A DNA stretch of 59,758 nucleotides, filler included, from Candidatus Babelota bacterium (GTDB lineage: Bacteria > JAGOBX01), in assembly GCA_017999075.1 (NCBI GenBank). It is 8 parts of 8 records of this genome, joined end to end, with 100 filler letters (N's around TTAATTAATTAA, not from the genome) between each part and the next. Parts side by side here need not be neighbours in the genome. Positions count along the whole stretch, not along the records: positions 7,601 to 15,053 come from JAGOBX010000164.1; 7 more parts are not named here. One strand, 5' to 3'. The notes under the pieces are model-generated. The model saw only the letters and a list, made by a program, of their open reading frames with translations. It was not told the DNA's origin and searched no databases. The position numbers and the translations under genes were made by a program. This document shows, one piece after another, positions 7,501 through 15,153 of the stretch (positions within the stretch are counted from its first letter, which is position 1; the number at the start of each line of letters is the position of its first letter).

Positions 7501-7600
7501 NNNNNNNNNNNNNNNNNNNNNNNNNNNNNNNNNNNNNNNNNNNNTTAATTAATTAANNNNNNNNNNNNNNNNNNNNNNNNNNNNNNNNNNNNNNNNNNNN
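7501..7600. other. Artificial contig linker
   Basis: N44-TTAATTAATTAA-N44, giving stops in all six frames. Confidence 0.99.
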
Positions 7601-7797
7601 ACATCGAGCATAATGTAGCCTTTGATGTTTTTGCTGTTCTTAGCGGTGTAGTATTTGAAATATTTGCGGTTGAATAATCCCGTTAATGCGTCCTTTAGTC
7701 CAACCAAGTGATGAATGTCCGTCTGTTCCAACGCTTCACTGAAAATATAAAATGAAACTCGTAATGTAATGATCATAGCTTTAAGGTATTTAACCAT
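7601..7797 (-). CDS. GGDEF-domain protein, N-terminal fragment (3' truncated)
   Basis: KDALTGLFNRKYF...GYIMLD(V) is the canonical GGDEF start; only ~35 aa precede it; CAGGAG RBS. Confidence 0.75.
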
Positions 7798-7820
7798 TGT
7801 AAATCAACTCCTGTGTTATA

Positions 7821-7859
7821 AAATAAAAAAGGCGCAGAGCTATTAAAGCGCCGCGCCTT
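7821..7859 (-). terminator. Intrinsic-terminator-like hairpin downstream of the integrase
   Basis: Minus strand AAGGCGCGG-CGCTTTAATAGCT-CTGCGCCTT followed by TTTTATTTT. Confidence 0.7.
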
Positions 7860-7936
7860 ATGTGAAAATATTCGGAAAATGTAGTAATGAGAAAAAATGC
7901 CGCTTATTTATTTGGCTTGCCTTTAAATAATGCCAA

Positions 7937-8773
7937 TTATTTATCCAATAAGCTCTTGATCTTTGAGATATGGCTCGTTGAAACCTGAGTGTAAATTGTA
8001 GTCGTGGAAATATCATTATGCCCGAGCAAAATCTGTATTGTCCTGAGATCCGTTCCAGCTTCCAATAAGTGGCTAGCCCCTGTCCGACGCAAGCCGTGAG
8101 GTGAAACTTGCTTATCAATATTACAACGCTCTAGTCCCTGTTCCATAATGTGTTCTACTGTGCGGACAGTTAAATGTGCTCCAGGCTTCTGACCCTCGAA
8201 CAACCATTCCTGCGGTTTATATTCCATGTAATATTCACGTAGCCAGCCCAGAACTTTTTCTGATAATATTGTAATGCGTTCCTTGCCACCTTTGGCCACT
8301 CGAACATTGACAATCATTTGCTTTGAATCAATGTCGCCTTTGCACTTGAGGTTAACTAACTCGTTAACTCGAAGCATTGAAGAATACAGCAGACCCAAGA
8401 TGCAACGATGTTTCAGATTATAGGTTGTCTCCAGCAAATATTGAACTTCGCTTATTGTCAGAACTTCTTTCAGCTTATGATGTTTAACTTTAATGTAATG
8501 AAGTTCATCGTTCCATTTGCGTTTCAATATAATCTCGGTGAAAAGTTTAATTGCAGAAATAGCGGAATTGTAATATTGCTCAGCTTCTGGGACACTGGTT
8601 CTTAAGTTGAGAAAATAGCTGCGTATCATCTCATCCGTCACTTGAGAAAGATCACAGTCAATCCATTTCGCTAACTGTCCAACGTATGATGTATAGGTTC
8701 CAATGGATGAATTAGCTTTACCTGACAGTAGCATTTGATCAACGAATTTAGAAATTGTTTCTTGATTAGACAT
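7937..8773 (-). CDS. Tyrosine recombinase (integron-integrase-like/XerD-like, N-terminal SAM-like domain, no IntI-specific insert)
   Basis: Full catalytic set: R (SMLRVNE), K (AKGGK), HxxR (HGLR), H (LLGH), Y (TTIYT). Likely start MSNQE at 8773 with AGGTGA RBS, overlapping the upstream gene stop. Confidence 0.93.
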   Translation of the reverse strand: MSNQETISKFVDQMLLSGKANSSIGTYTSYVGQLAKWIDCDLSQVTDEMIRSYFLNLRTSVPEAEQYYNSAISAIKLFTEIILKRKWNDELHYIKVKHHKLKEVLTISEVQYLLETTYNLKHRCILGLLYSSMLRVNELVNLKCKGDIDSKQMIVNVRVAKGGKERITILSEKVLGWLREYYMEYKPQEWLFEGQKPGAHLTVRTVEHIMEQGLERCNIDKQVSPHGLRRTGASHLLEAGTDLRTIQILLGHNDISTTTIYTQVSTSHISKIKSLLDK

Positions 8774-8966
8774 TGCGATCACCTGCCTGGATATTAAGTT
8801 TTGATATAGCATTACCAATTTTTGTTTTGTCGCTATAAAGATAATACTCGTCAATAATTTTAACGATCATTTTGGTAATTGGAATTCCTTCAGCGGTAGC
8901 CAGAATTTTAAGTTTTGTACTGGTTTCATACGGGATAGTACAGCTCCGTTCAAATGGGTATGCCAT
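8766..8966 (-). CDS. Small ribbon-helix-helix-like DNA-binding protein
   Basis: 66 aa; short strand followed by TKLKILATAEGIPITKMIVKIIDEY (CopG/RHH-like helix pair); AAGGAG RBS; overlaps the integrase start by 8 nt. Confidence 0.6.
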   Translation of the reverse strand: MAYPFERSCTIPYETSTKLKILATAEGIPITKMIVKIIDEYYLYSDKTKIGNAISKLNIQAGDRNV

Positions 8967-9025
8967 AATGACATCAACTCCTTTGTATAAAATTTAAAAT
9001 TTGTGATGAAGTGAAATGAATAAAA

Positions 9026-9061
9026 AATGGCGATATGTGCTGATGCACACAAAGCATAAAT
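9026..9061. repeat. Diverged fourth copy of the hairpin repeat
   Basis: AATGGCGATATGTGCTGATGCACACAAAGCATAAAT aligns to AATAGCGATATACTCGATGAGCATAAGGCATAAAT (9660-9694); stem 9034-9040/9045-9051 preserved. Confidence 0.65.
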
Positions 9062-9067
9062 GCGGAA

Positions 9068-9547
9068 CTATTTTTCTAAATGAAATAGCGGCAACTTTAA
9101 TTGAAGTGTGTCGTAGTCGTGTAACAGAATTGATTTGCGATATTGTGCGGCGTAATTCAGCTCGTGCGTAGTGCCCAAGCTTCTGTTTAATCTGTAGGCG
9201 TTACAGATATCGCAATCGGCCAGCATTTCCTTATTTCGACTTATAATCCCAGCTAAATATTGATTGCAATGTGATTCAATGATAATCGCGCCCATTTTTA
9301 TAGCTTGATGGATAAACGGCTTAACCACTAGCGGAATGTTATCCAGCTTCTTCGCCAGCCAAATATGAACTTTAGAGCAATCGTTTTTAGCGATAAAATA
9401 CTTTACAGCTTCAATTGAAATACCAGCGCATCCACCTGTAGAAAATACAGTTTGCTTTGATAGTGTAAGCTGATCCAATGTTGAATGCAGGTCAACTATC
9501 ATGTCATCAGTTAAAGTACGAGAACCAATTAGACAGATTTTGTTCAT
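9068..9547 (-). CDS. SLOG superfamily (DprA/Smf/YspA-like) Rossmann-fold protein, 159 aa
   Basis: ICLIGSR, STGGCAG, ISRNKEM and SLGTTHELNYA motifs; true start MNKIC at 9547 with AGGAGG RBS. The longer ORF call runs through a non-coding repeat array. Confidence 0.8.
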   Translation of the reverse strand: MNKICLIGSRTLTDDMIVDLHSTLDQLTLSKQTVFSTGGCAGISIEAVKYFIAKNDCSKVHIWLAKKLDNIPLVVKPFIHQAIKMGAIIIESHCNQYLAGIISRNKEMLADCDICNAYRLNRSLGTTHELNYAAQYRKSILLHDYDTLQLKLPLFHLEK

Positions 9548-9608
9548 AGTAAATCCTCCTGTGATAAATTTAGTATTGAAAATTAATGATAAGAAATTTG
9601 GTGTGATT

Positions 9609-9742
9609 AAGTAGCGGCCAATAATGTAGTAGCGATATGCACAATGCGCATAAGGTATAAATAGCGATATACTCGATGAGCATAAGGCATAAATAGCGGC
9701 AAAATTATAAGTAGCGATATGCACAATGCGCATAAGGCAAAT
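9609..9742. repeat. Array of 28-bp hairpin repeats interleaved with short TAGCGGC units
   Basis: AGTAGCGATATGCACAATGCGCATAAGG exact at 9628-9655 and 9710-9737; 23/28 variant at 9660-9687; TAGCG cores at 9612, 9630, 9662, 9694 and 9712. Confidence 0.9.
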
Positions 9743-9760
9743 GCTGATAATAGCTATAAA

Positions 9761-9806
9761 CACAAAAAGCCGAATACACCATGGACGGCATACTCGGCTC
9801 TTTGTG
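9761..9806 (-). other. 21-bp strand-specific hairpin (terminator, RNA or ssDNA structure)
   Basis: Minus strand CACAAAGAGCCGAGTATGCCG-TCCA-TGGTGTATTCGGCTTTTTGTG pairs at all 21 positions, five by G.T. Confidence 0.8.
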
Positions 9807-9852
9807 CGGTGAGAATAATAATGAGAGAAAATGCGCATATTCTTTTAACTGA

Positions 9853-10161
9853 TTACAGCTTGATACTAGAAAACGGCTTTACATCCCAGTAAAGATCACG
9901 GTCAACTTCAATACCTCTAACACTGATTTCAGAAAGTTCGCTTAATGAAACGTAGCCCCATTCTGCCATTTCAAGATCACCGTTCAATATGCAATAGCCG
10001 AACATCAGATCAAAATCACTGTGATCAATTTCAGCAATATACCAGTCGCAATTTCCGATGAAAAAATGCAGATAAATTAATTTGTCTTTGCAGCTTACAT
10101 TCTCAGTTGAATAAAGATCAGGCACATTTTTCAATTCGTTAATACTTGGTTTGTTCCACAT
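9853..10161 (-). CDS. DUF2958-like protein (typical of plasmids, ICEs and phages)
   Basis: PDLYSTE...HFF...DWYIAE...MFGY...EWGYVSLSEL...VDRDLYW pattern; start ATG 10161 (or GTG 10170). Confidence 0.8.
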   Translation of the reverse strand: MWNKPSINELKNVPDLYSTENVSCKDKLIYLHFFIGNCDWYIAEIDHSDFDLMFGYCILNGDLEMAEWGYVSLSELSEISVRGIEVDRDLYWDVKPFSSIKL

Positions 10162-10277
10162 AAAAAACACGCTCCATTTTTAAGATTTAAAATAAAACAC
10201 TTGCTTTTGGGTAAGCTTCGAGTAGCAGTAAATATGGCAGATTTGCAGTAAGTGCAGGGACTTTCGAGACTTTTCAT
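10131..10277 (-). CDS. Possible 48-aa double-CxxC microprotein
   Basis: MKSLESPCTYCKSAIFTATRSLPKSKCFILNLKNGACFLCGTNQVLTN; GGAGG upstream but only 2 nt from the ATG; overlaps the DUF2958 start. Confidence 0.3.
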   Translation of the reverse strand: MKSLESPCTYCKSAIFTATRSLPKSKCFILNLKNGACFLCGTNQVLTN

Positions 10278-10326
10278 CACCTCCAGTTGTTCGGATAAGT
10301 CGTTTAATGCGGGAATGTTGTAGCGG

Positions 10327-10368
10327 AAATAAAAAAGCCGCCCAAGCTTTTAAAGGCTCGAACGGCTT
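10327..10368 (-). terminator. Intrinsic-terminator-like hairpin at the head of the minus-strand gene run
   Basis: Minus strand AAGCCGTTCGAGC-CTTTAAAA-GCTTGGGCGGCTT (13 bp, 3 G.T) followed by TTTTATTT. Confidence 0.7.
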
Positions 10369-10592
10369 CCAGTGTAAAATTTGATATTGAAAGTTTAATA
10401 GGTAAGAGTACGTGGCTCGGAACTAATGGGTCCCCTCGGTATAGATATTGCCTATCTCCAGCATGAATGATTTTCTGAAATTTGCATATTAGAAATTTCT
10501 ATAATTTTTTTCTGTAAAAATTGGGCTATAAGGGAAGTATGATAGCATATTCTTTGTTATAAAATAAATTCTCGAAAATTTTCACTATTAAC

Positions 10593-10621
10593 TTGAATGT
10601 TTAAAAAAGTTATGGTATAAT
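10593..10621 (+). promoter_or_regulatory. Sigma70 promoter with extended -10 for the res-mod operon
   Basis: TTGAAT (10593-10598), 17 bp spacer, TGGTATAAT (TGnTATAAT, -10 at 10616-10621). Confidence 0.7.
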
Positions 10622-10660
10622 ATAATGAATTTTTTTATATATTTTTTTATGTAGGTATCT

Positions 10661-13648
10661 ATGGCAGATAATCCAATTTTAAATAATCCATATTTGGAAC
10701 CAAAAATATATTATAATACCGATATACAGGGAAATTTAGATTATTCGGATATAAAAAAAGGGCGGCGTATTTATTCTCACGATATAACACCGCAGCCGAC
10801 ACAAAGACCCAATACTCAACAAGGACTTTTCAATATTTCAGATATACAGGACAGATATGAAGAACATTTAATTAATGTTTTAAGAAAAGAAGTTAGTATC
10901 TGGCGAAAAAACAAATACCCGAACACTACAAGAATTACAAAATTATTACTTGACTATTGGTTTGATAGCGCCGACAGAATTGATTATCATAAATTATTTT
11001 TTGCGCAGCAGGAAGCGGTTGAGACTGCAATATTTCTAAATGAAATTGCAGATAAATCAAATTCAGGGCAAGCTATATTAAACAGATTAAGAAACGGTCA
11101 GGTTATTGTCGAAAAAAATTCTCAGTTCAATCTACCTCGCATTGCGTTCAAGATGGCGACAGGGTCTGGCAAAACTGTTGTAATGGCTATGCTGATACTT
11201 TACCATTTTTATAATCGGCTTGAATACAGAAATGATACACGCTTTGCAGATAATTTTATAATTATAGCGCCAGGTATCACTATTAAGGACCGCCTTGGCG
11301 TTTTATATGTTGATACTCAAAATAATTCTATTCAAAATATTCAGGATTATTATCGAACGCGGCGTTTGATTCCACAAAATTATGAACAGGATTTATTACA
11401 GCTTAATTCCAAACTGATAATAACAAATTACCACTCTTTCGAACAGAAAGTTTTAAAAGGAAACAAAAAAACTCCTTTTGACGGCAAAATAGGCGCGGAT
11501 GGAAAAAAGGTTAGGGAACTTGAAGATTATTCGCTTGTTTTAAAAAGAATCGTTGGCAAATTTAAAAAAGGGTCAAGAATTTTGGTTATTAATGATGAAG
11601 CGCATCATTGTTATTTGCCGAAAGTAAAAGAGAAAAACGTTAAACACGATGATTCGGAAGGGGAAAACGAACGCGCATCAATTTGGTTCAATGGTATAGT
11701 AGAACTTTCAAAACAATATCAATTACGGTATGTCTATGATTTAAGCGCAACACCATATTTTCTTCAAGGCTCTGGGTATGAATCATATTCATTATTTCCC
11801 TGGACTGTTTCTGATTTTGGTTTAATAGAAGCTATCGAATCTGGGTTGGTAAAGATTCCGTTTTTACCTGAATCAGATTCAACACAGCAAATAGAAATGC
11901 CTGTGTTACGAAATCTTTATGAACATATAAAAAAAGATTTACCTAAAAAAGGCGCGAGTTCATTAAAATTATCAGGCGCGCCTAAGTTGCCCGAACTTAT
12001 AAAAATTGCGTTGGATCAATTCTATTCGCATTATGAAAAATCATATAATGAATTTCGTGATTTATTTGGAAATCCGCCAGTATTCATAATTGTTTGTAAT
12101 AATACCAATGTGTCTTCCGAAGTATTTAAATATATAGCTGGTTATGAAATTGACCGAGAAGATAAAACCAAATTAATTATTCCAGGTAATTTTGAGTTAT
12201 TCAGCAATTACCAAAAAGATACTTTAAAACCTTTGGATAAATGTCCCACTCTTTTGATTGATTCAAATGCTCTTGAAAATTCAGAGCAAATAGATGAACA
12301 ATTTAAAAAGATTTTTACTTCGGAAATTGAAATTTTCAAAAAAGAATATCGTATAATGCATCCAGATAAATCAGCCGATAATCTTATTGACTCCGATATA
12401 TTGCGTGAAGTAGTAAATACAGTTGGCAAACAAGGAATGCTTGGCGGACATATCAGATGCGTTGTTTCTGTATCAATGCTGACCGAAGGCTGGGACGCAA
12501 ATACCGTTACGCATATAATGGGAATTCGAGCGTTCGGTTCTCAATTATTATGCGAACAGGTAGCTGGCAGAGCATTACGGCGTTCATCATATTTTTTAGG
12601 GAAAGATGGTAAATTTCCGCCTGAATATGCGCATATAATCGGCGTTCCTTTCAGATTCTTTAAGGGCGGCAAATCAGCAGCGGTTATAGTTCAGGATGAT
12701 ATTAAAATAATTAAAGCATTACAGGAAAGGGAAAAATATGAAATTATCTTTCCAAATATAACTGGATACCGCGTTGAATCCGAATCGCAAATATATGAAG
12801 CTGATTTTAGCAAAGTGGAAGATTATGTAATTGATGGTTCTGTTTTACCTGTTCAGACAGATATGAAAAATGCTTTTTCGTCTGATAAAGAAATATTAAC
12901 GCTCGAAAAATGCAAAGAAAAACGGGAACAAGAATTAATTTACCTGATTACCAAAAATTTATTGTCGTTTTACTATTCCGATATAAATGGATTTCCAGAA
13001 TTTCAATTATTCAATCAATTGAAGAAAATAGTTCACGAATGGTATGAATTCAAAATTAAGTTATCTGGACCTGCATTTAAACAGATGTTATATTATTGCG
13101 AGCCGAAAAATATTTGTAATCACATTAAACGCGGAATAGATTCTAAAAATATAAATTCTACAAAAATATTCCCAGTTTTTAATTATTATAACAAACTCGG
13201 TTCGACAAAATATGTGCACGGCGCTACTTCAAAAGAAATTTATGCGACAAAAAACAGTCATATTAATTATGTTGTCGCTGATACTAAGAGTTGGGAACAG
13301 ATTGCCGCTAAAACATTTGAAGAACTATCGGACAAAATTTATTGTTATGTAAAAAATGCTTTTCTCGGTTTTTCTATTCCTTATATAAAAGATGATAAAG
13401 ACAGGCAATATTTTCCAGATTTTATTGTAAAATGTAAGACAAAAAATAAAAAATTTATTAATTTGATTGTTGAAATTACAGGGATGAATCAGGATAAATC
13501 TGAAAAACGCTGGTATTTGTTGAATAGGTGGTTGCCAGCAGTTAACAGTGTGTCTGAAATGTATGGATATGACAAATTCGATTTTATGGAAATTTCGGAT
13601 ATAAAAAATATTAAAGAGTTATTGCGGATAAAAATTCAATCACTATAA
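10661..13648 (+). CDS. res: Type III-like restriction endonuclease subunit (SF2 helicase + PD-(D/E)xK nuclease; resembles BPTD_3080 family)
   Basis: MATGSGKT, NDEAHH, LSATP, LTEGWD, EQVAGRALRR and C-terminal YFPDFIV...VEITG motifs; followed by a DNA methyltransferase. Confidence 0.9.
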   Translation: MADNPILNNPYLEPKIYYNTDIQGNLDYSDIKKGRRIYSHDITPQPTQRPNTQQGLFNISDIQDRYEEHLINVLRKEVSIWRKNKYPNTTRITKLLLDYWFDSADRIDYHKLFFAQQEAVETAIFLNEIADKSNSGQAILNRLRNGQVIVEKNSQFNLPRIAFKMATGSGKTVVMAMLILYHFYNRLEYRNDTRFADNFIIIAPGITIKDRLGVLYVDTQNNSIQNIQDYYRTRRLIPQNYEQDLLQLNSKLIITNYHSFEQKVLKGNKKTPFDGKIGADGKKVRELEDYSLVLKRIVGKFKKGSRILVINDEAHHCYLPKVKEKNVKHDDSEGENERASIWFNGIVELSKQYQLRYVYDLSATPYFLQGSGYESYSLFPWTVSDFGLIEAIESGLVKIPFLPESDSTQQIEMPVLRNLYEHIKKDLPKKGASSLKLSGAPKLPELIKIALDQFYSHYEKSYNEFRDLFGNPPVFIIVCNNTNVSSEVFKYIAGYEIDREDKTKLIIPGNFELFSNYQKDTLKPLDKCPTLLIDSNALENSEQIDEQFKKIFTSEIEIFKKEYRIMHPDKSADNLIDSDILREVVNTVGKQGMLGGHIRCVVSVSMLTEGWDANTVTHIMGIRAFGSQLLCEQVAGRALRRSSYFLGKDGKFPPEYAHIIGVPFRFFKGGKSAAVIVQDDIKIIKALQEREKYEIIFPNITGYRVESESQIYEADFSKVEDYVIDGSVLPVQTDMKNAFSSDKEILTLEKCKEKREQELIYLITKNLLSFYYSDINGFPEFQLFNQLKKIVHEWYEFKIKLSGPAFKQMLYYCEPKNICNHIKRGIDSKNINSTKIFPVFNYYNKLGSTKYVHGATSKEIYATKNSHINYVVADTKSWEQIAAKTFEELSDKIYCYVKNAFLGFSIPYIKDDKDRQYFPDFIVKCKTKNKKFINLIVEITGMNQDKSEKRWYLLNRWLPAVNSVSEMYGYDKFDFMEISDIKNIKELLRIKIQSL

Positions 13649-13662
13649 GGAGAAATCAGTAG

Positions 13663-15053
13663 ATGACTGTCGAATCAATAAAACACAAACATAATAAACG
13701 GGCATTTATTCCTTCGGTATCTGAAGCAGGTCAGGAAACAGACAATCAAATCGTGAAGGAAAAGAAAAGTATTAAAATGGTTCGCAATCCGATTGTTCAG
13801 CGCGGTCAGGATCCCGAATTATACTGGATGAATAAATACGGCGCTGACGATACAGAAAAATTTTCTGAAGTGGATATTCGTTCGTTATACCGCATTGAAC
13901 ATATCTCGCCTGAAATGTTGATACAAAAATTATATAAAATCAAAGAAATTCCAGCTGAACAATTATCGTTAATGGATTTATTCGGTAATTCAATAAATAT
14001 CGATGAACTCGAAAAAGTCGGCGAATATTACAAACACCAGGATAACTGGACGAATAGAATGATTCTCGGCGATTCCCAGCTTGTAATGACATCGCTGTTA
14101 GAACGCGAAGGGCTTGCAGGCAAGGTTCAAACAATTTTTTTTGATCCGCCTTATGGTATTAAATACGGTTCAAACTGGCAGATTAAATTGAATAATAAAA
14201 ATGTTACAGACGGCAAAGACGAACATCTCAGCGGCGAACCAGAACAAATAAAAGCATACCGCGATACTTGGGAATTGGGAATACATTCGTATCTGAGTTA
14301 TCTGCGCGACAGATTGCTGGTAGCTCAAAAATTACTTACTGAAAGCGGAAGTTGCTTTGTCCAGATTTCTGATGAAAATGTACATCTCGTTAGATGCCTG
14401 ATGGATGAGGTTTTTGGAAGCGCAAATTTTGTGAGTTTGATTAGTTTTTCTACAACAAGCGGTTTTGAAAGTAAAACAATATCAAGAGCTGGTGATTATA
14501 TTTTATGGTATGCTAAAGATATTGAAACTGTTAAATATCGACAACTTTATTTAGAAAAACAAGATGATACAAGTGGTTATAATAAAATTGAATTAGAAAA
14601 TGGAGAACGTCGAAGTTTAACAAAAGAAGAAAAAGAAAATTCTTTACTTATTCCTAAAAATTCAAAAATATATTCTTCAGGAGCGTTATTTAGTCCAGGA
14701 GAATCACCAGAGGGATCAAAATCTTTTATTTTTAAAAATAAAGAATATAAACCTTCCAGCGGGCATTGGAAAACTACTTTAAAGGGGTTGGAAAAACTAA
14801 CTCAACTGAATAGAATTGAAGTTTCAGGAAATACTATAAGATATGTTCGATATTTTAATGATTTTCCACTTGTTCCAATAAATAATATATGGAAAGATAC
14901 ACAAACTTTTATGGATAAATATTATGTAGTTCAAACTTCTCAAAAAATCATCCAGCGCTGTCTCCTAATGACCACCGACCCAGGCGATCTTGTTCTTGAC
15001 CCGACCTGCGGCAGCGGCACGTCTGCTTATGTTGCAGAGCAATGGGGCAGACG
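13663..15053 (+). CDS. mod: Amino-DNA methyltransferase, beta class (Type III Mod-like), 3' truncated
   Basis: Motif IV DPPY precedes the variable region and motif I LDPTCGSGT; AGGAG RBS. Confidence 0.92.
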
Positions 15054-15153
15054 NNNNNNNNNNNNNNNNNNNNNNNNNNNNNNNNNNNNNNNNNNNNTTA
15101 ATTAATTAANNNNNNNNNNNNNNNNNNNNNNNNNNNNNNNNNNNNNNNNNNNN
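15054..15153. other. Artificial contig linker
   Basis: N44-TTAATTAATTAA-N44. Confidence 0.99.

What the first reader, a model, noticed from the sequence alone, without database searches (positions are those of the whole stretch)
7601..10368. Tyrosine recombinase inside a run of small genes separated by related structured spacers: candidate cassette system
Seen: five co-oriented genes (DUF2958-like > SLOG > RHH-like > recombinase > GGDEF). The non-coding gaps are built from a shared kit: a post-stop box, minus-strand hairpins, a 28-bp hairpin repeat and a common RBS leader (each reported separately). Known: the recombinase has all catalytic residues and the N-terminal layout of integron integrases, which recombine folded ssDNA sites, but it lacks the IntI insert, and no canonical attC is present. 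Inference: unrelated genes each flanked by related spacers suggest a modular array reshuffled by site-specific or homologous recombination. It could be a non-canonical integron-like system or the leading/early region of an MGE. I do not recognise this combination as a described system.
Basis: partly seen in the sequence, partly recalled or inferred. Interest (0 to 1): 0.82.

Follow-up and report, generated by a model that had tools for sequence, protein, structure and literature searches.

The report
Conserved recombinase module, not cassettes
A fixed set of small genes ending in a DNA recombinase, probably part of a mobile element of uncultured wastewater bacteria, whose spacers are mostly ordinary gene start and stop signals and not the swap sites of a gene-cassette system.

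Summary
The window is eight ~7.4-kb contigs joined by N linkers. The finding sits at the cut end of contig 7601-15053.

The five co-oriented minus-strand genes are real:
- DUF2958
- a DprA-like SLOG protein
- a small ribbon-helix-helix-like protein
- a Xer-like tyrosine recombinase that overlaps it
- the start of a small GGDEF protein

The "shared kit" is partly real. It consists of three rho-independent terminators, similar Shine-Dalgarno leaders, one 19-nt post-stop box, and a 26-nt imperfect palindrome. The palindrome has three copies in one spacer and a degenerate copy in another.

The same gene order recurs on at least four other contigs. The palindrome array is missing from the one relative I could read (L081). 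Two short contig variants also appear to lack it. No attC-like site and no IntI features were found.

Best reading (0.6): a conserved recombination-plus-accessory module of an uncharacterised mobile element. The RHH-like protein probably acts as regulator or helper of the recombinase. No recombination site or element ends were identified. Interest is low to moderate.

The parts
10254..10536 (-). Conserved non-coding block. It is the outermost part shared with the related locus L081 and contains a terminator. Candidate small RNA or DNA site.
   Evidence: 89.5% identical to L081 over 285 columns, against 82.6-83.2% for the coding stretches. No reading frame is conserved, because an indel shifts the frame. 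No Rfam match. No covariation can be seen with only 2 sequences.
10333..10370 (-). Terminator-like hairpin inside the block. The 13-15 bp stem has G-U pairs that work only on the minus strand, and a T run follows.
10179..10253 (-). Variable spacer. L081 and a Dependentiae MAG contig carry a 45-aa hydrophobic ORF here; the window lacks it.
   Evidence: Several contig joints fall in this stretch.
9853..10161 (-). DUF2958 protein, 102 aa.
   Evidence: Pfam PF11171 at 2.1e-08, 34.9 bits, above the cut-off of 21. This exact 102-aa form is in the protein collection.
9816..9834 (-). Post-stop box, copy 1. It lies about 20 nt after the DUF2958 stop codon.
   Evidence: 17 of 19 identical to 7882-7900. 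This similarity is marginal against chance.
9760..9807 (-). Strong terminator hairpin after DUF2958, with a 21-bp stem.
   Evidence: MFE -36.5 kcal/mol, z -5.83, 0 of 200 shuffles as good. Conserved in L081.
9608..9740 (-). Tandem array of three 26-nt imperfect palindromes at 9630-9655, 9662-9687 and 9712-9737. Each has a 7-bp stem when read on the minus strand. Short CGCTAYTTAT boxes lie between them.
   Evidence: Absent from L081. Apparently replaced by 31-37 other letters in two contig variants.
9068..9547 (-). DprA-like SLOG-superfamily protein, 159 aa.
   Evidence: Weak Pfam hits: DprA 0.015 and SLOG cluster4 0.02. AF2 model pLDDT 62, pTM 0.64. Foldseek hits: ShosA 3e-07 and H. pylori DprA 2.7e-06, TM about 0.70.
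9030..9055 (-). Degenerate copy of the palindrome between SLOG and RHH, with a 7-bp stem followed by a T run. It could be a weak terminator, an operator, or both.
   Evidence: (family D4). It is present in L081 but displaced by about 40 nt, and one stem pair is changed on both sides.
8766..8966 (-). Small RHH-like protein, 66 aa. Its stop codon overlaps the recombinase start by 8 nt.
   Evidence: Residues 1-35 are invariant in all 4 variants and residues 1-44 differ at only one position (K36Q in one variant).
7937..8773 (-). Xer-like tyrosine recombinase, 278 aa.
   Evidence: PF00589 at 5e-37 and PF13495 at 5.5e-09. Best NCBIfam hit is XerA_Arch at 192 bits, below its cut-off of 220. Aligns over its full length to P. 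abyssi XerA, 4a8e, at 2.2e-30.
7882..7900 (-). Post-stop box, copy 2, after the recombinase stop codon.
7829..7859 (-). Terminator hairpin after the recombinase.
7603..7797 (-). First 65 residues of a small GGDEF-domain protein, cut off by the contig end.
   Evidence: Full-length relatives of 167 aa carry PF00990. One of them lies on the 4285-base contig that also holds an 80% identical recombinase.

Best explanation
This is a conserved gene module of an uncharacterised mobile or mosaic element from uncultured bacteria of wastewater and biogas communities. It is not a cassette array.

The module, read on the minus strand, is: a conserved ~283-nt non-coding block, an optional 45-aa ORF, DUF2958, a DprA-like SLOG protein, an RHH-like protein, and a Xer-like tyrosine recombinase.

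Shown:
- The gene order is fixed across relatives.
- The recombinase has an intact catalytic set.
- Each gene except RHH has its own Shine-Dalgarno leader and terminator-type hairpin.

Inferred:
- The RHH-like protein and the recombinase are translated as a coupled pair.
- The RHH dimer binds DNA, as repressor of its own operon and/or as helper of recombination.
- The short palindromes (left half TTATGC, 7 nt, then a looser right half) are its most likely binding sites. They have expanded to three tandem copies in this strain only.
- The recombinase integrates, excises or resolves the carrier element at a site that lies outside what this contig shows.
- DUF2958 and the DprA-like protein are accessory genes of the kind carried by plasmids and phages, with possible single-strand DNA handling or establishment roles.
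For: FIXED CONTENT.
- L081 has the same four genes in the same order: DUF2958 83%, SLOG 92.5%, RHH 89%, recombinase 90%.
- A Dependentiae MAG contig of 4894 bases carries them as consecutive accessions MBP7653988 to MBP7653991.
- All four proteins are recorded on contigs whose longest is 10751 bases. SLOG, RHH and recombinase are on one of 11298 bases. SLOG and a recombinase are on one of 39366 bases.

MOSAIC OR MOBILE BEHAVIOUR.
- Homology with L081 stops at 10536, and a biogas contig diverges at 10508. That gives three different flanks.
- The SLOG protein recorded on the 39366-base contig is 91% identical to the window's, while the recombinase recorded there is only 56% identical.
- The contig's GC is 0.347, against 0.27-0.31 for the other seven.
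- DUF2958 relatives lie on 25 plasmid records, next to orphan methylases, JAB and TrfA/Par genes.

THE JUNCTION IS REAL. Exact contigs span 10492-12580 and 10425-10662.

RECOMBINASE. The R, K, H-x-x-R, H and Y motifs align with XerA and XerD.

RHH.
- The homodimer model scored 0.54, best of 3 controls 0.00. That mark was reached by 20 of 30 proteins solved as pairs of one chain and by 1 of 23 solved as single chains.
- The runs agree in at least 96% of contacts, and partner pLDDT is at least 74.
- The interface includes the N-terminal strand 5-13 of both copies. This shows likeness to solved RHH dimers, not binding.

SLOG FOLD..

ORDINARY SIGNALS. Terminators and leaders.
Against: - No replication, transfer, phage or transposase gene is on the contig, and no pair of ends or att site was found. 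The only long palindrome is a terminator.
- No DNA match and no SLOG or RHH match in 72,556 plasmid records. No DNA or SLOG match in 50,697 phage records, where RHH was not searched. None in viral contigs.
- Co-location on the 10751, 11298 and 39366 contigs is inferred from equal contig lengths, not read from DNA.
- The role of the palindromes is inference only. Their stems differ between copies while still pairing, which fits a folded strand at least as well as a fixed protein site.
- The RHH label rests on models. The monomer pLDDT is only 54.
- The 45-aa ORF and the GGDEF gene do vary between relatives, so content is not completely fixed.
Confidence: 0.6

Rival explanations
1. Plasmid or transposon resolution (or inversion) system rather than an integrase. 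The RHH-recombinase pair would resolve multimers or cointegrates. The directly repeated palindromes would be accessory binding motifs beside a core site, as in the res-type site of the TnpI recombinase of Tn4430.
For: - The recombinase has only a core-binding SAM-like domain and no arm-binding domain.
- Relatives at about 37-40% identity sit on plasmids, one of them next to ParA.
- The repeated motifs are direct repeats.
- The TnpI parallel rests on the abstract of PMC2847244 as shown in the search listing.
Against: - The array is missing from L081 and apparently from two other variants that keep the recombinase.
- No core site with arms of 9 bp or more was found.
- No plasmid backbone genes are on this contig.
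Confidence: 0.2
2. Leading or early region of a conjugative element. The co-oriented small genes would be expressed first after single-strand entry, and the minus-strand hairpins would act as single-strand promoters or priming sites.
For: - All genes point one way.
- DprA-like and DUF2958 genes occur in runs of small co-oriented plasmid genes beside orphan methylases.
- Single-strand promoters in leading regions are described in PMC11541004 (passages read).
Against: - The repeat hairpins have 7-bp stems and carry no -35/-10 mimic. The longer hairpins are followed by T runs, like terminators.
- No oriT, relaxase or SSB is on the contig.
- The main text of that paper names none of DprA, SLOG or DUF2958 (0 occurrences each). 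Its supplementary tables could not be seen.
Confidence: 0.1
3. Non-canonical integron-like cassette system. Each gene would be a cassette bounded by folded recombination sites used by the recombinase.
For: - The palindromes keep conserved flanks around a variable stem, with a both-sides change between window and L081.
- A 45-aa ORF and the GGDEF gene are present in some relatives only.
Against: - The order DUF2958-SLOG-RHH-recombinase is fixed.
- IntI models score far below cut-off: 127.7 against 265, and 76.1 against 435. IntI4 aligns only over residues 200-272.
- There are 0 RYYYAAC...GTTRRRY pairs at 50-150 nt.
- The units are 26 nt long with 7-bp stems.
- The recombinase lies downstream of the genes and in the same orientation.
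- The genes carry their own terminators.
- No joint across SLOG was listed.
Confidence: 0.04
4. Ordinary chromosomal gene cluster of one bacterial lineage with fast-evolving intergenic DNA and no mobility.
For: - No mobility genes other than the recombinase.
- One relative is binned as a Dependentiae MAG.
- Proteins are 80-94% alike, as among related strains.
Against: - Three different flanks at one boundary.
- SLOG 91% against recombinase 56% for the proteins recorded on the 39366-base contig.
- The contig's GC stands apart from the rest of the bin.
- All carriers are short contigs.
Confidence: 0.06

Closest known systems
XerA-type 'site-specific tyrosine recombinase/integron integrase' (NCBIfam NF040815), including the recombinases that accompany IS91-family transposases
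   Same: - Same two-domain layout (PF13495 + PF00589).
- Full-length alignment to P. abyssi XerA (4a8e) with the catalytic motifs in place.
- The nearest annotated relatives, at about 40% identity, bear this name.
   Different: - The score of 192 bits is below the family cut-off of 220.
- No IS91 transposase follows it, unlike in a Clostridium estertheticum plasmid. By eye only, loci L004 and L091 also look like that arrangement.
- It has an overlapping RHH-like partner that those relatives lack.
Integrons (IntI, attI, attC cassettes)
   Same: A tyrosine recombinase lies near short genes separated by small palindromic elements.
   Different: - No IntI-specific features.
- No attC-like sites.
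- The recombinase is co-oriented with the genes and downstream of them.
- The genes have their own terminators.
- Content is fixed across relatives.
Plasmid leading-region / anti-defence islands (PMC11541004)
   Same: Runs of small co-oriented genes of unknown function. DUF2958 relatives on plasmids sit beside orphan methylases and JAB proteins.
   Different: No oriT, relaxase, SSB or Frpo-like long hairpin is seen here. The link is by analogy only.
DprA and ShosA (the DprA-like partner of the ShosTA defence pair)
   Same: The predicted Rossmann-like fold matches them at TM about 0.70.
   Different: - The protein has only the 159-aa core domain.
- Sequence similarity is below family cut-offs.
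- No ShosT-like gene lies next to it.

Membership tests
Integron | IntI-type integrase (family model and the extra IntI segment) | tested here: not met
   TIGR02249 scored 127.7 bits against a cut-off of 265. PRK15417 scored 76.1 against 435. IntI4 (2a3v) aligns only to residues 200-272.
Integron | attC sites: imperfect palindromes of about 57-141 nt with inverse core and core boxes | tested here: not met
   0 RYYYAAC...GTTRRRY pairs at 50-150 nt on either strand of 7601-10660 (the box motifs are recalled). The repeats are 26 nt long with 7-bp stems.
Integron | Cassette content varies between relatives while the sites persist | tested here: not met
The array is absent from L081.
Integron | Integrase next to attI and divergent from the array | tested here: not met
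   The recombinase is the fourth of five co-oriented genes.
Tyrosine recombinase (Xer-like) | Catalytic domain above the Pfam cut-off, plus the N-terminal SAM-like domain | tested here: met
   PF00589 at 127.8 bits (cut-off 27.1) and PF13495 at 36.7 bits (cut-off 27).
Tyrosine recombinase (Xer-like) | Catalytic R, K, H-x-x-R, H/W and Y residues | tested here: met
   LRVNE, GGKER, PHGLRR, GHND and IYT align with the same motifs of XerA (4a8e) and XerD (1a0p). Which residues are catalytic is recalled knowledge.
XerC / XerD / XerA equivalogs | Score above the NCBIfam equivalog cut-off | tested here: not met
   XerA 192.3 against 220; XerD 160.7 against 329.6; XerC 156.7 against 335.
SLOG superfamily (DprA-like) | Family model above cut-off | tested here: not met
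   DNA_processg_A at 14.9 bits (cut-off 29.6) and LDcluster4 at 14.9 bits (cut-off 26.3). A 79% identical relative carries a precomputed PF18306 assignment.
SLOG superfamily (DprA-like) | Rossmann-like fold matching DprA, YpsA or LOG-type structures | tested here: met
   Model pLDDT 62.4, pTM 0.64, with the C-terminal third at low confidence. Foldseek hits: ShosA, DprA (three species), YpsA and the Moco carrier protein, all at E <= 1e-3.
Ribbon-helix-helix (Arc/MetJ/CopG) | Sequence family match | tested here: not met
   No Pfam or NCBIfam hit. PHROG Arc-like repressor at 0.035 only. Only 11 relatives at E <= 0.001 among 1.84 billion representatives, none with a family above cut-off.
Ribbon-helix-helix (Arc/MetJ/CopG) | Strand-helix-helix topology forming an intertwined dimer | tested here: inconclusive
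   Helices at 13-26 and 30-43 follow an extended N-terminus, but the monomer pLDDT is 54. The homodimer scored 0.54 against a best control of 0.00, with residues 5-13 of both copies in the interface.
DUF2958 | Pfam model above cut-off | tested here: met
   34.9 bits against a cut-off of 21.
GGDEF domain protein | GGDEF domain above cut-off | tested here: inconclusive
   The 65-aa fragment scores 13.1 bits (cut-off 23.8). Full-length relatives at 77-94% identity carry PF00990.
Conjugative leading region with single-strand promoters | oriT or relaxase nearby, and long hairpins that mimic a -35/-10 promoter | tested here: not met
   No such genes are on the contig. The hairpins are either 7-bp stems or terminator-type. 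Whether the carrier element has an oriT cannot be tested with this contig.

The most novel reading that the evidence does not exclude
The ~2.7-2.9-kb stretch from about 10536 to the terminator at 7829 may be a self-contained minimal mobile unit. It would move by a Xer-like recombinase assisted by a new RHH-type partner. The non-coding block, which is conserved more strongly than the genes, would serve as its attachment site or a regulatory RNA. The DprA-like and DUF2958 proteins would handle a single-stranded intermediate. The short palindromes with conserved flanks and variable stems would then be folded-strand binding sites, which would make it a new kind of small integrative element.
Probability: 0.1. 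Interest if true: 0.6.

Novelty: new member of a known kind. Interest (0 to 1): 0.28.

Why it matters
As an integron-like system it would have been important, but the evidence goes against that. Three things remain.

First, there is a recurrent, unannotated gene module from wastewater and biogas metagenomes. It has at least seven carrier contigs, and one is binned as Dependentiae.

Second, the module pairs a Xer-like recombinase with a tiny, nearly orphan RHH-like family. That family has 11 representatives in 1.84 billion proteins.

Third, the module includes a non-coding block that is conserved more strongly than its genes.

The module is a reasonable target for anyone cataloguing mobile elements of uncultured bacteria.

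There is also a practical lesson. Windows made of concatenated short contigs can make a contig end look like a gene boundary.

Tried and rejected
DATABASE SEARCHES WITH NO MATCH
- Megablast of 7601-10450 against plasmids and phages: no match.
- tblastn of SLOG against plasmids and phages, and of RHH against plasmids: no match.
- Viral contigs: only two recombinase relatives at 34% identity, none for SLOG, and none for a 20-nt piece of the conserved block.
- Rfam at E <= 1: only a sub-threshold L20 leader match, 21.3 bits against 58.7.
- No tRNA or tmRNA in the window.
- No whole genome is held for the window.
- Earlier findings of this scan: nothing.

RELATED LOCI
- Genome contigs gave no relative above 45% identity among the 80 loci kept.
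- Metagenome contigs gave one close locus, L081, among the 80 kept.
- None of the other 161 loci encodes DUF2958, SLOG or RHH relatives.
- The SLOG profile was not found in the 401, 232 and 401 genomes searched from three phyla reached through loci L004, L003 and L009. An empty answer there shows little.

HOST PLACEMENT
- A housekeeping protein is only about 40% identical to five genomes tried.
- The Atlas gave no clear taxon.
- I left the host unnamed.

STRUCTURE AND SITE SEARCHES
- Covariation in the conserved block: none visible with two sequences.
- Folding of the array is not better than shuffles (z -1.80 minus strand, 0.02 plus strand). The same holds for the block (z -1.54).
- Search for a Xer-type core (arms 9-12 nt, spacer 5-9 nt): only the terminator.
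- A 14-of-14 direct repeat at 7814 and 10555 looked like possible att cores. It lies 19 nt outside the homology shared with L081, so I treat it as unexplained.
- The CGCTAYTTAT box is not enriched in the whole window: 9 matches against 9.9 expected.
- Sigma-70-like sites: 8 found against 12.6 expected, none upstream of the five genes.

READS AND LITERATURE
- No RNA holder is listed among the sequencing runs.
- Stretches without contig cover are not used.
- Literature: 'DUF2958' occurs in 2 papers, both incidental (search listing).
- A search for RHH with recombination directionality factors and tyrosine recombinases listed no direct precedent among the 10 shown.

Full report
WHERE THE FINDING LIES

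The window is not one stretch of genome. Seven linkers of the form N44-TTAATTAATTAA-N44 split it into eight pieces of 7320-7500 bases. The finding occupies the left end of the piece 7601-15053. That piece has GC 0.347, against 0.272-0.310 for the other seven. The 'GGDEF gene' is therefore only the first 65 codons of a gene cut off by a contig end. Nothing to the left of 7601 is its neighbour.

To the right of the finding, on the plus strand, the same contig carries a Type III restriction enzyme: res at 10661-13648 and mod at 13663-15051, the latter cut.

The junction between the finding and the restriction genes is not an assembly artefact. Exact contigs from public runs span 10492-12580 and 10425-10662. 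One of those runs may be the window's own source.

THE GENES

All five ORFs are on the minus strand.

- DUF2958 (10161-9853) passes its Pfam cut-off.
- The next protein (9547-9068, 159 aa) has no family hit above cut-off. It has weak full-length hits to DprA (0.015) and SLOG cluster 4 (0.02) and a language-model lead to small DprA-like clusters.
  - Its AlphaFold model is of moderate confidence: pLDDT 62.4 and pTM 0.64, with the last third poor.
  - The best matches to solved structures are ShosA, DprA from three species, YpsA and the Moco carrier protein, at TM about 0.6-0.7.
- The 66-aa protein (8966-8766) has no family hit. A PHROG Arc-like repressor scores 0.035.
  - A profile of four variants finds only 11 proteins at E <= 0.001 among 1.84 billion representatives. 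Most of them are 52-68 aa long and share the start M-x-YPF.
  - As a monomer it folds poorly, pLDDT 54.
  - As a homodimer the model scored 0.54, best of 3 controls 0.00. That mark was reached by 20 of 30 proteins solved as pairs of one chain and by 1 of 23 solved as single chains. The runs agree in at least 96% of contacts, and partner pLDDT is at least 74.
  - The N-terminal residues 5-13 of both copies are in the interface. This is what an RHH dimer looks like. It shows likeness, not proof.
- The recombinase (8773-7937) overlaps the RHH stop codon by 8 nt.
  - It has both Pfam domains and aligns over its full length with P. abyssi XerA. The motifs LRVNE, GGKER, PHGLRR, GHND and IYT fall in the places of the catalytic residues.
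  - It falls below the cut-offs of XerA, XerC, XerD and, by a wide margin, the integron integrases.

THE SPACERS

Three strong stem-loops followed by T runs lie after the conserved block (10370-10333), after DUF2958 (9807-9760, z -5.83) and after the recombinase (7859-7829). They are ordinary terminator-type signals.

Three of the five genes have similar leaders. RHH and GGDEF share ATTTTATA...AGGAGTTGAT, and SLOG has a looser version.

A 19-nt box follows the stop codons of both DUF2958 and the recombinase, 17 of 19 identical.

The one feature far beyond chance is a 26-nt imperfect palindrome. It has two identical copies and one diverged copy between 9608 and 9740, and a degenerate copy at about 9030-9055.

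Across 7601-10540 there are 4 pairs matching at 17 of 20 or better, against a mean of 0.43 (max 3) in 40 shuffles. Two of the four are the array itself. The rest of the 'kit' is therefore marginal.

On the minus strand the copies form 7-bp stems whose sequences differ but still pair. The left flank TTATGC is constant (direct reading).

Close relatives of the recombinase are few: five clusters at 80-89% identity and two at 56-59%. After that comes a drop to 50% or less. Only one of them could be read as DNA, the 2511-base metagenome contig L081.

L081 has the same genes in the same order. Three things differ.
- It carries an extra 45-aa hydrophobic ORF between the conserved block and DUF2958.
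- It lacks the palindrome array entirely and keeps only the short CGCTAC boxes.
- Its copy of the palindrome upstream of RHH is shifted by about 40 nt, and one stem pair is changed on both sides (G-C to A-T).

For the other relatives I used exact look-ups of protein clusters.
- The SLOG protein (90% or more identical to its cluster representative) is recorded on contigs of 10751, 11298, 4894, 39366, 2511, 1000 and 7453 bases.
- The RHH protein is recorded on 10751, 4894 and 11298.
- DUF2958 is recorded on 4894 and 10751.
- These are the same lengths as the contigs that hold the recombinases.
- In the 4894-base contig of a Dependentiae MAG the four proteins have consecutive accession numbers.

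Two items do vary. The 45-aa ORF is present in L081 and in the 4894 contig but not in the window. The GGDEF protein is found only with the window and with the 4285-base contig.

Laying contigs of four public runs (two studies: wastewater and biogas fermenter) showed two further forms in which 9599-9756 or 9603-9752 is replaced by 37 or 31 other letters. Their shorter sides are only 26-30 letters, at 85% likeness.

No joint linking the palindrome copies across SLOG was listed. Contigs can miss rare forms.

In short, the genes are conserved and the spacers are the variable part. That is the reverse of a cassette system.

SIGNS OF A MOBILE OR MOSAIC ELEMENT

- Homology with L081 begins abruptly at 10536. 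A biogas contig leaves the window's sequence at 10508. The window continues into a restriction system that has no recorded relative. That gives three different flanks within 30 bases.
- The proteins recorded on the 39366-base contig pair a 91% identical SLOG with a 56% identical recombinase.
- The outermost shared part, 10254-10536, is non-coding. It ends in a terminator and is more conserved (89.5%) than the coding DNA (82.6-83.2%). It is therefore under selection as RNA or as a DNA site. I could not tell which.
- DUF2958 relatives occur on 25 plasmid records and one phage record. In the three contexts I opened they sit in runs of small co-oriented genes beside orphan methylases, a JAB protein, and ParA/ParB/TrfA.
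- The nearest annotated recombinase relatives, at about 40% identity, are plasmid-borne. One lies next to an IS91-family transposase and one near ParA.

WHAT I COULD NOT FIND

- No recombination site and no second end of an element were found. The only palindrome with arms of 9 nt or more is a terminator.
- No attC-type box pair exists.
- The module has no match in the plasmid, phage or viral collections.
- The SLOG profile was not found in 1034 genomes of three phyla.

VERDICT

The cassette or integron-like reading is not supported. The fallback 'part of a mobile element' is the best fit.

I commit to the following at 0.6. This is a conserved recombination-plus-accessory module. The RHH-like protein regulates or assists the Xer-like recombinase. 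The palindromes are most likely its binding sites, expanded by tandem duplication in this strain. The other spacer features are ordinary expression signals.

The boldest reading still open is that the ~2.8-kb unit is itself a minimal integrative element, with the conserved block as its site or RNA. I put that at 0.1.

Noticed in passing
window 7501-7600, 15054-15153 and five more places: The window is eight contigs of 7320-7500 bases joined by N44-TTAATTAATTAA-N44 linkers, in descending order of length. Features that touch a linker are contig ends, not gene boundaries.
   Followed up: yes
window 10661-15051 (+): Type III restriction-modification genes with res before mod. The Res protein has a weak TnsA-like endonuclease hit near its C-terminus (E 0.0054) and no recorded relative in its 90% cluster.
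   Followed up: partly
window 7814-7827 and 10555-10568: An exact 14-nt direct repeat (TGTTATAAAATAAA) brackets the module. One copy lies in the GGDEF leader. The other lies 19 nt beyond the end of the homology with L081. It could be chance in AT-rich DNA or a relic of an insertion.
   Followed up: partly
L081 100-240: Just outside the shared module, L081 has tandem GTCCAAGTCGTCCA-type direct repeats and an inverted copy about 90 nt further on. They look like protein-binding repeats of a different neighbour.
   Followed up: no
L081 655-792; absent at window 10179-10253: A 45-aa strongly hydrophobic ORF lies between the conserved block and DUF2958. It is also recorded on the Dependentiae MAG contig. 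The window has a short unrelated spacer instead.
   Followed up: partly
window 7603-7797 (-) and proteins P0143, P0146: The full-length relatives of the cut GGDEF gene are only 167 aa long. They have an N-terminal hydrophobic helix and read AGDEF where the family signature is usually GGDEF. This is an unusually small stand-alone domain protein.
   Followed up: no
loci L004, L091 and L166: Recombinase relatives at 35-40% identity are directly followed by a gene of about 390 aa. That gene is annotated as an IS91-family transposase in the plasmid record. In L004 and L091 the likeness is judged by eye only.
   Followed up: partly
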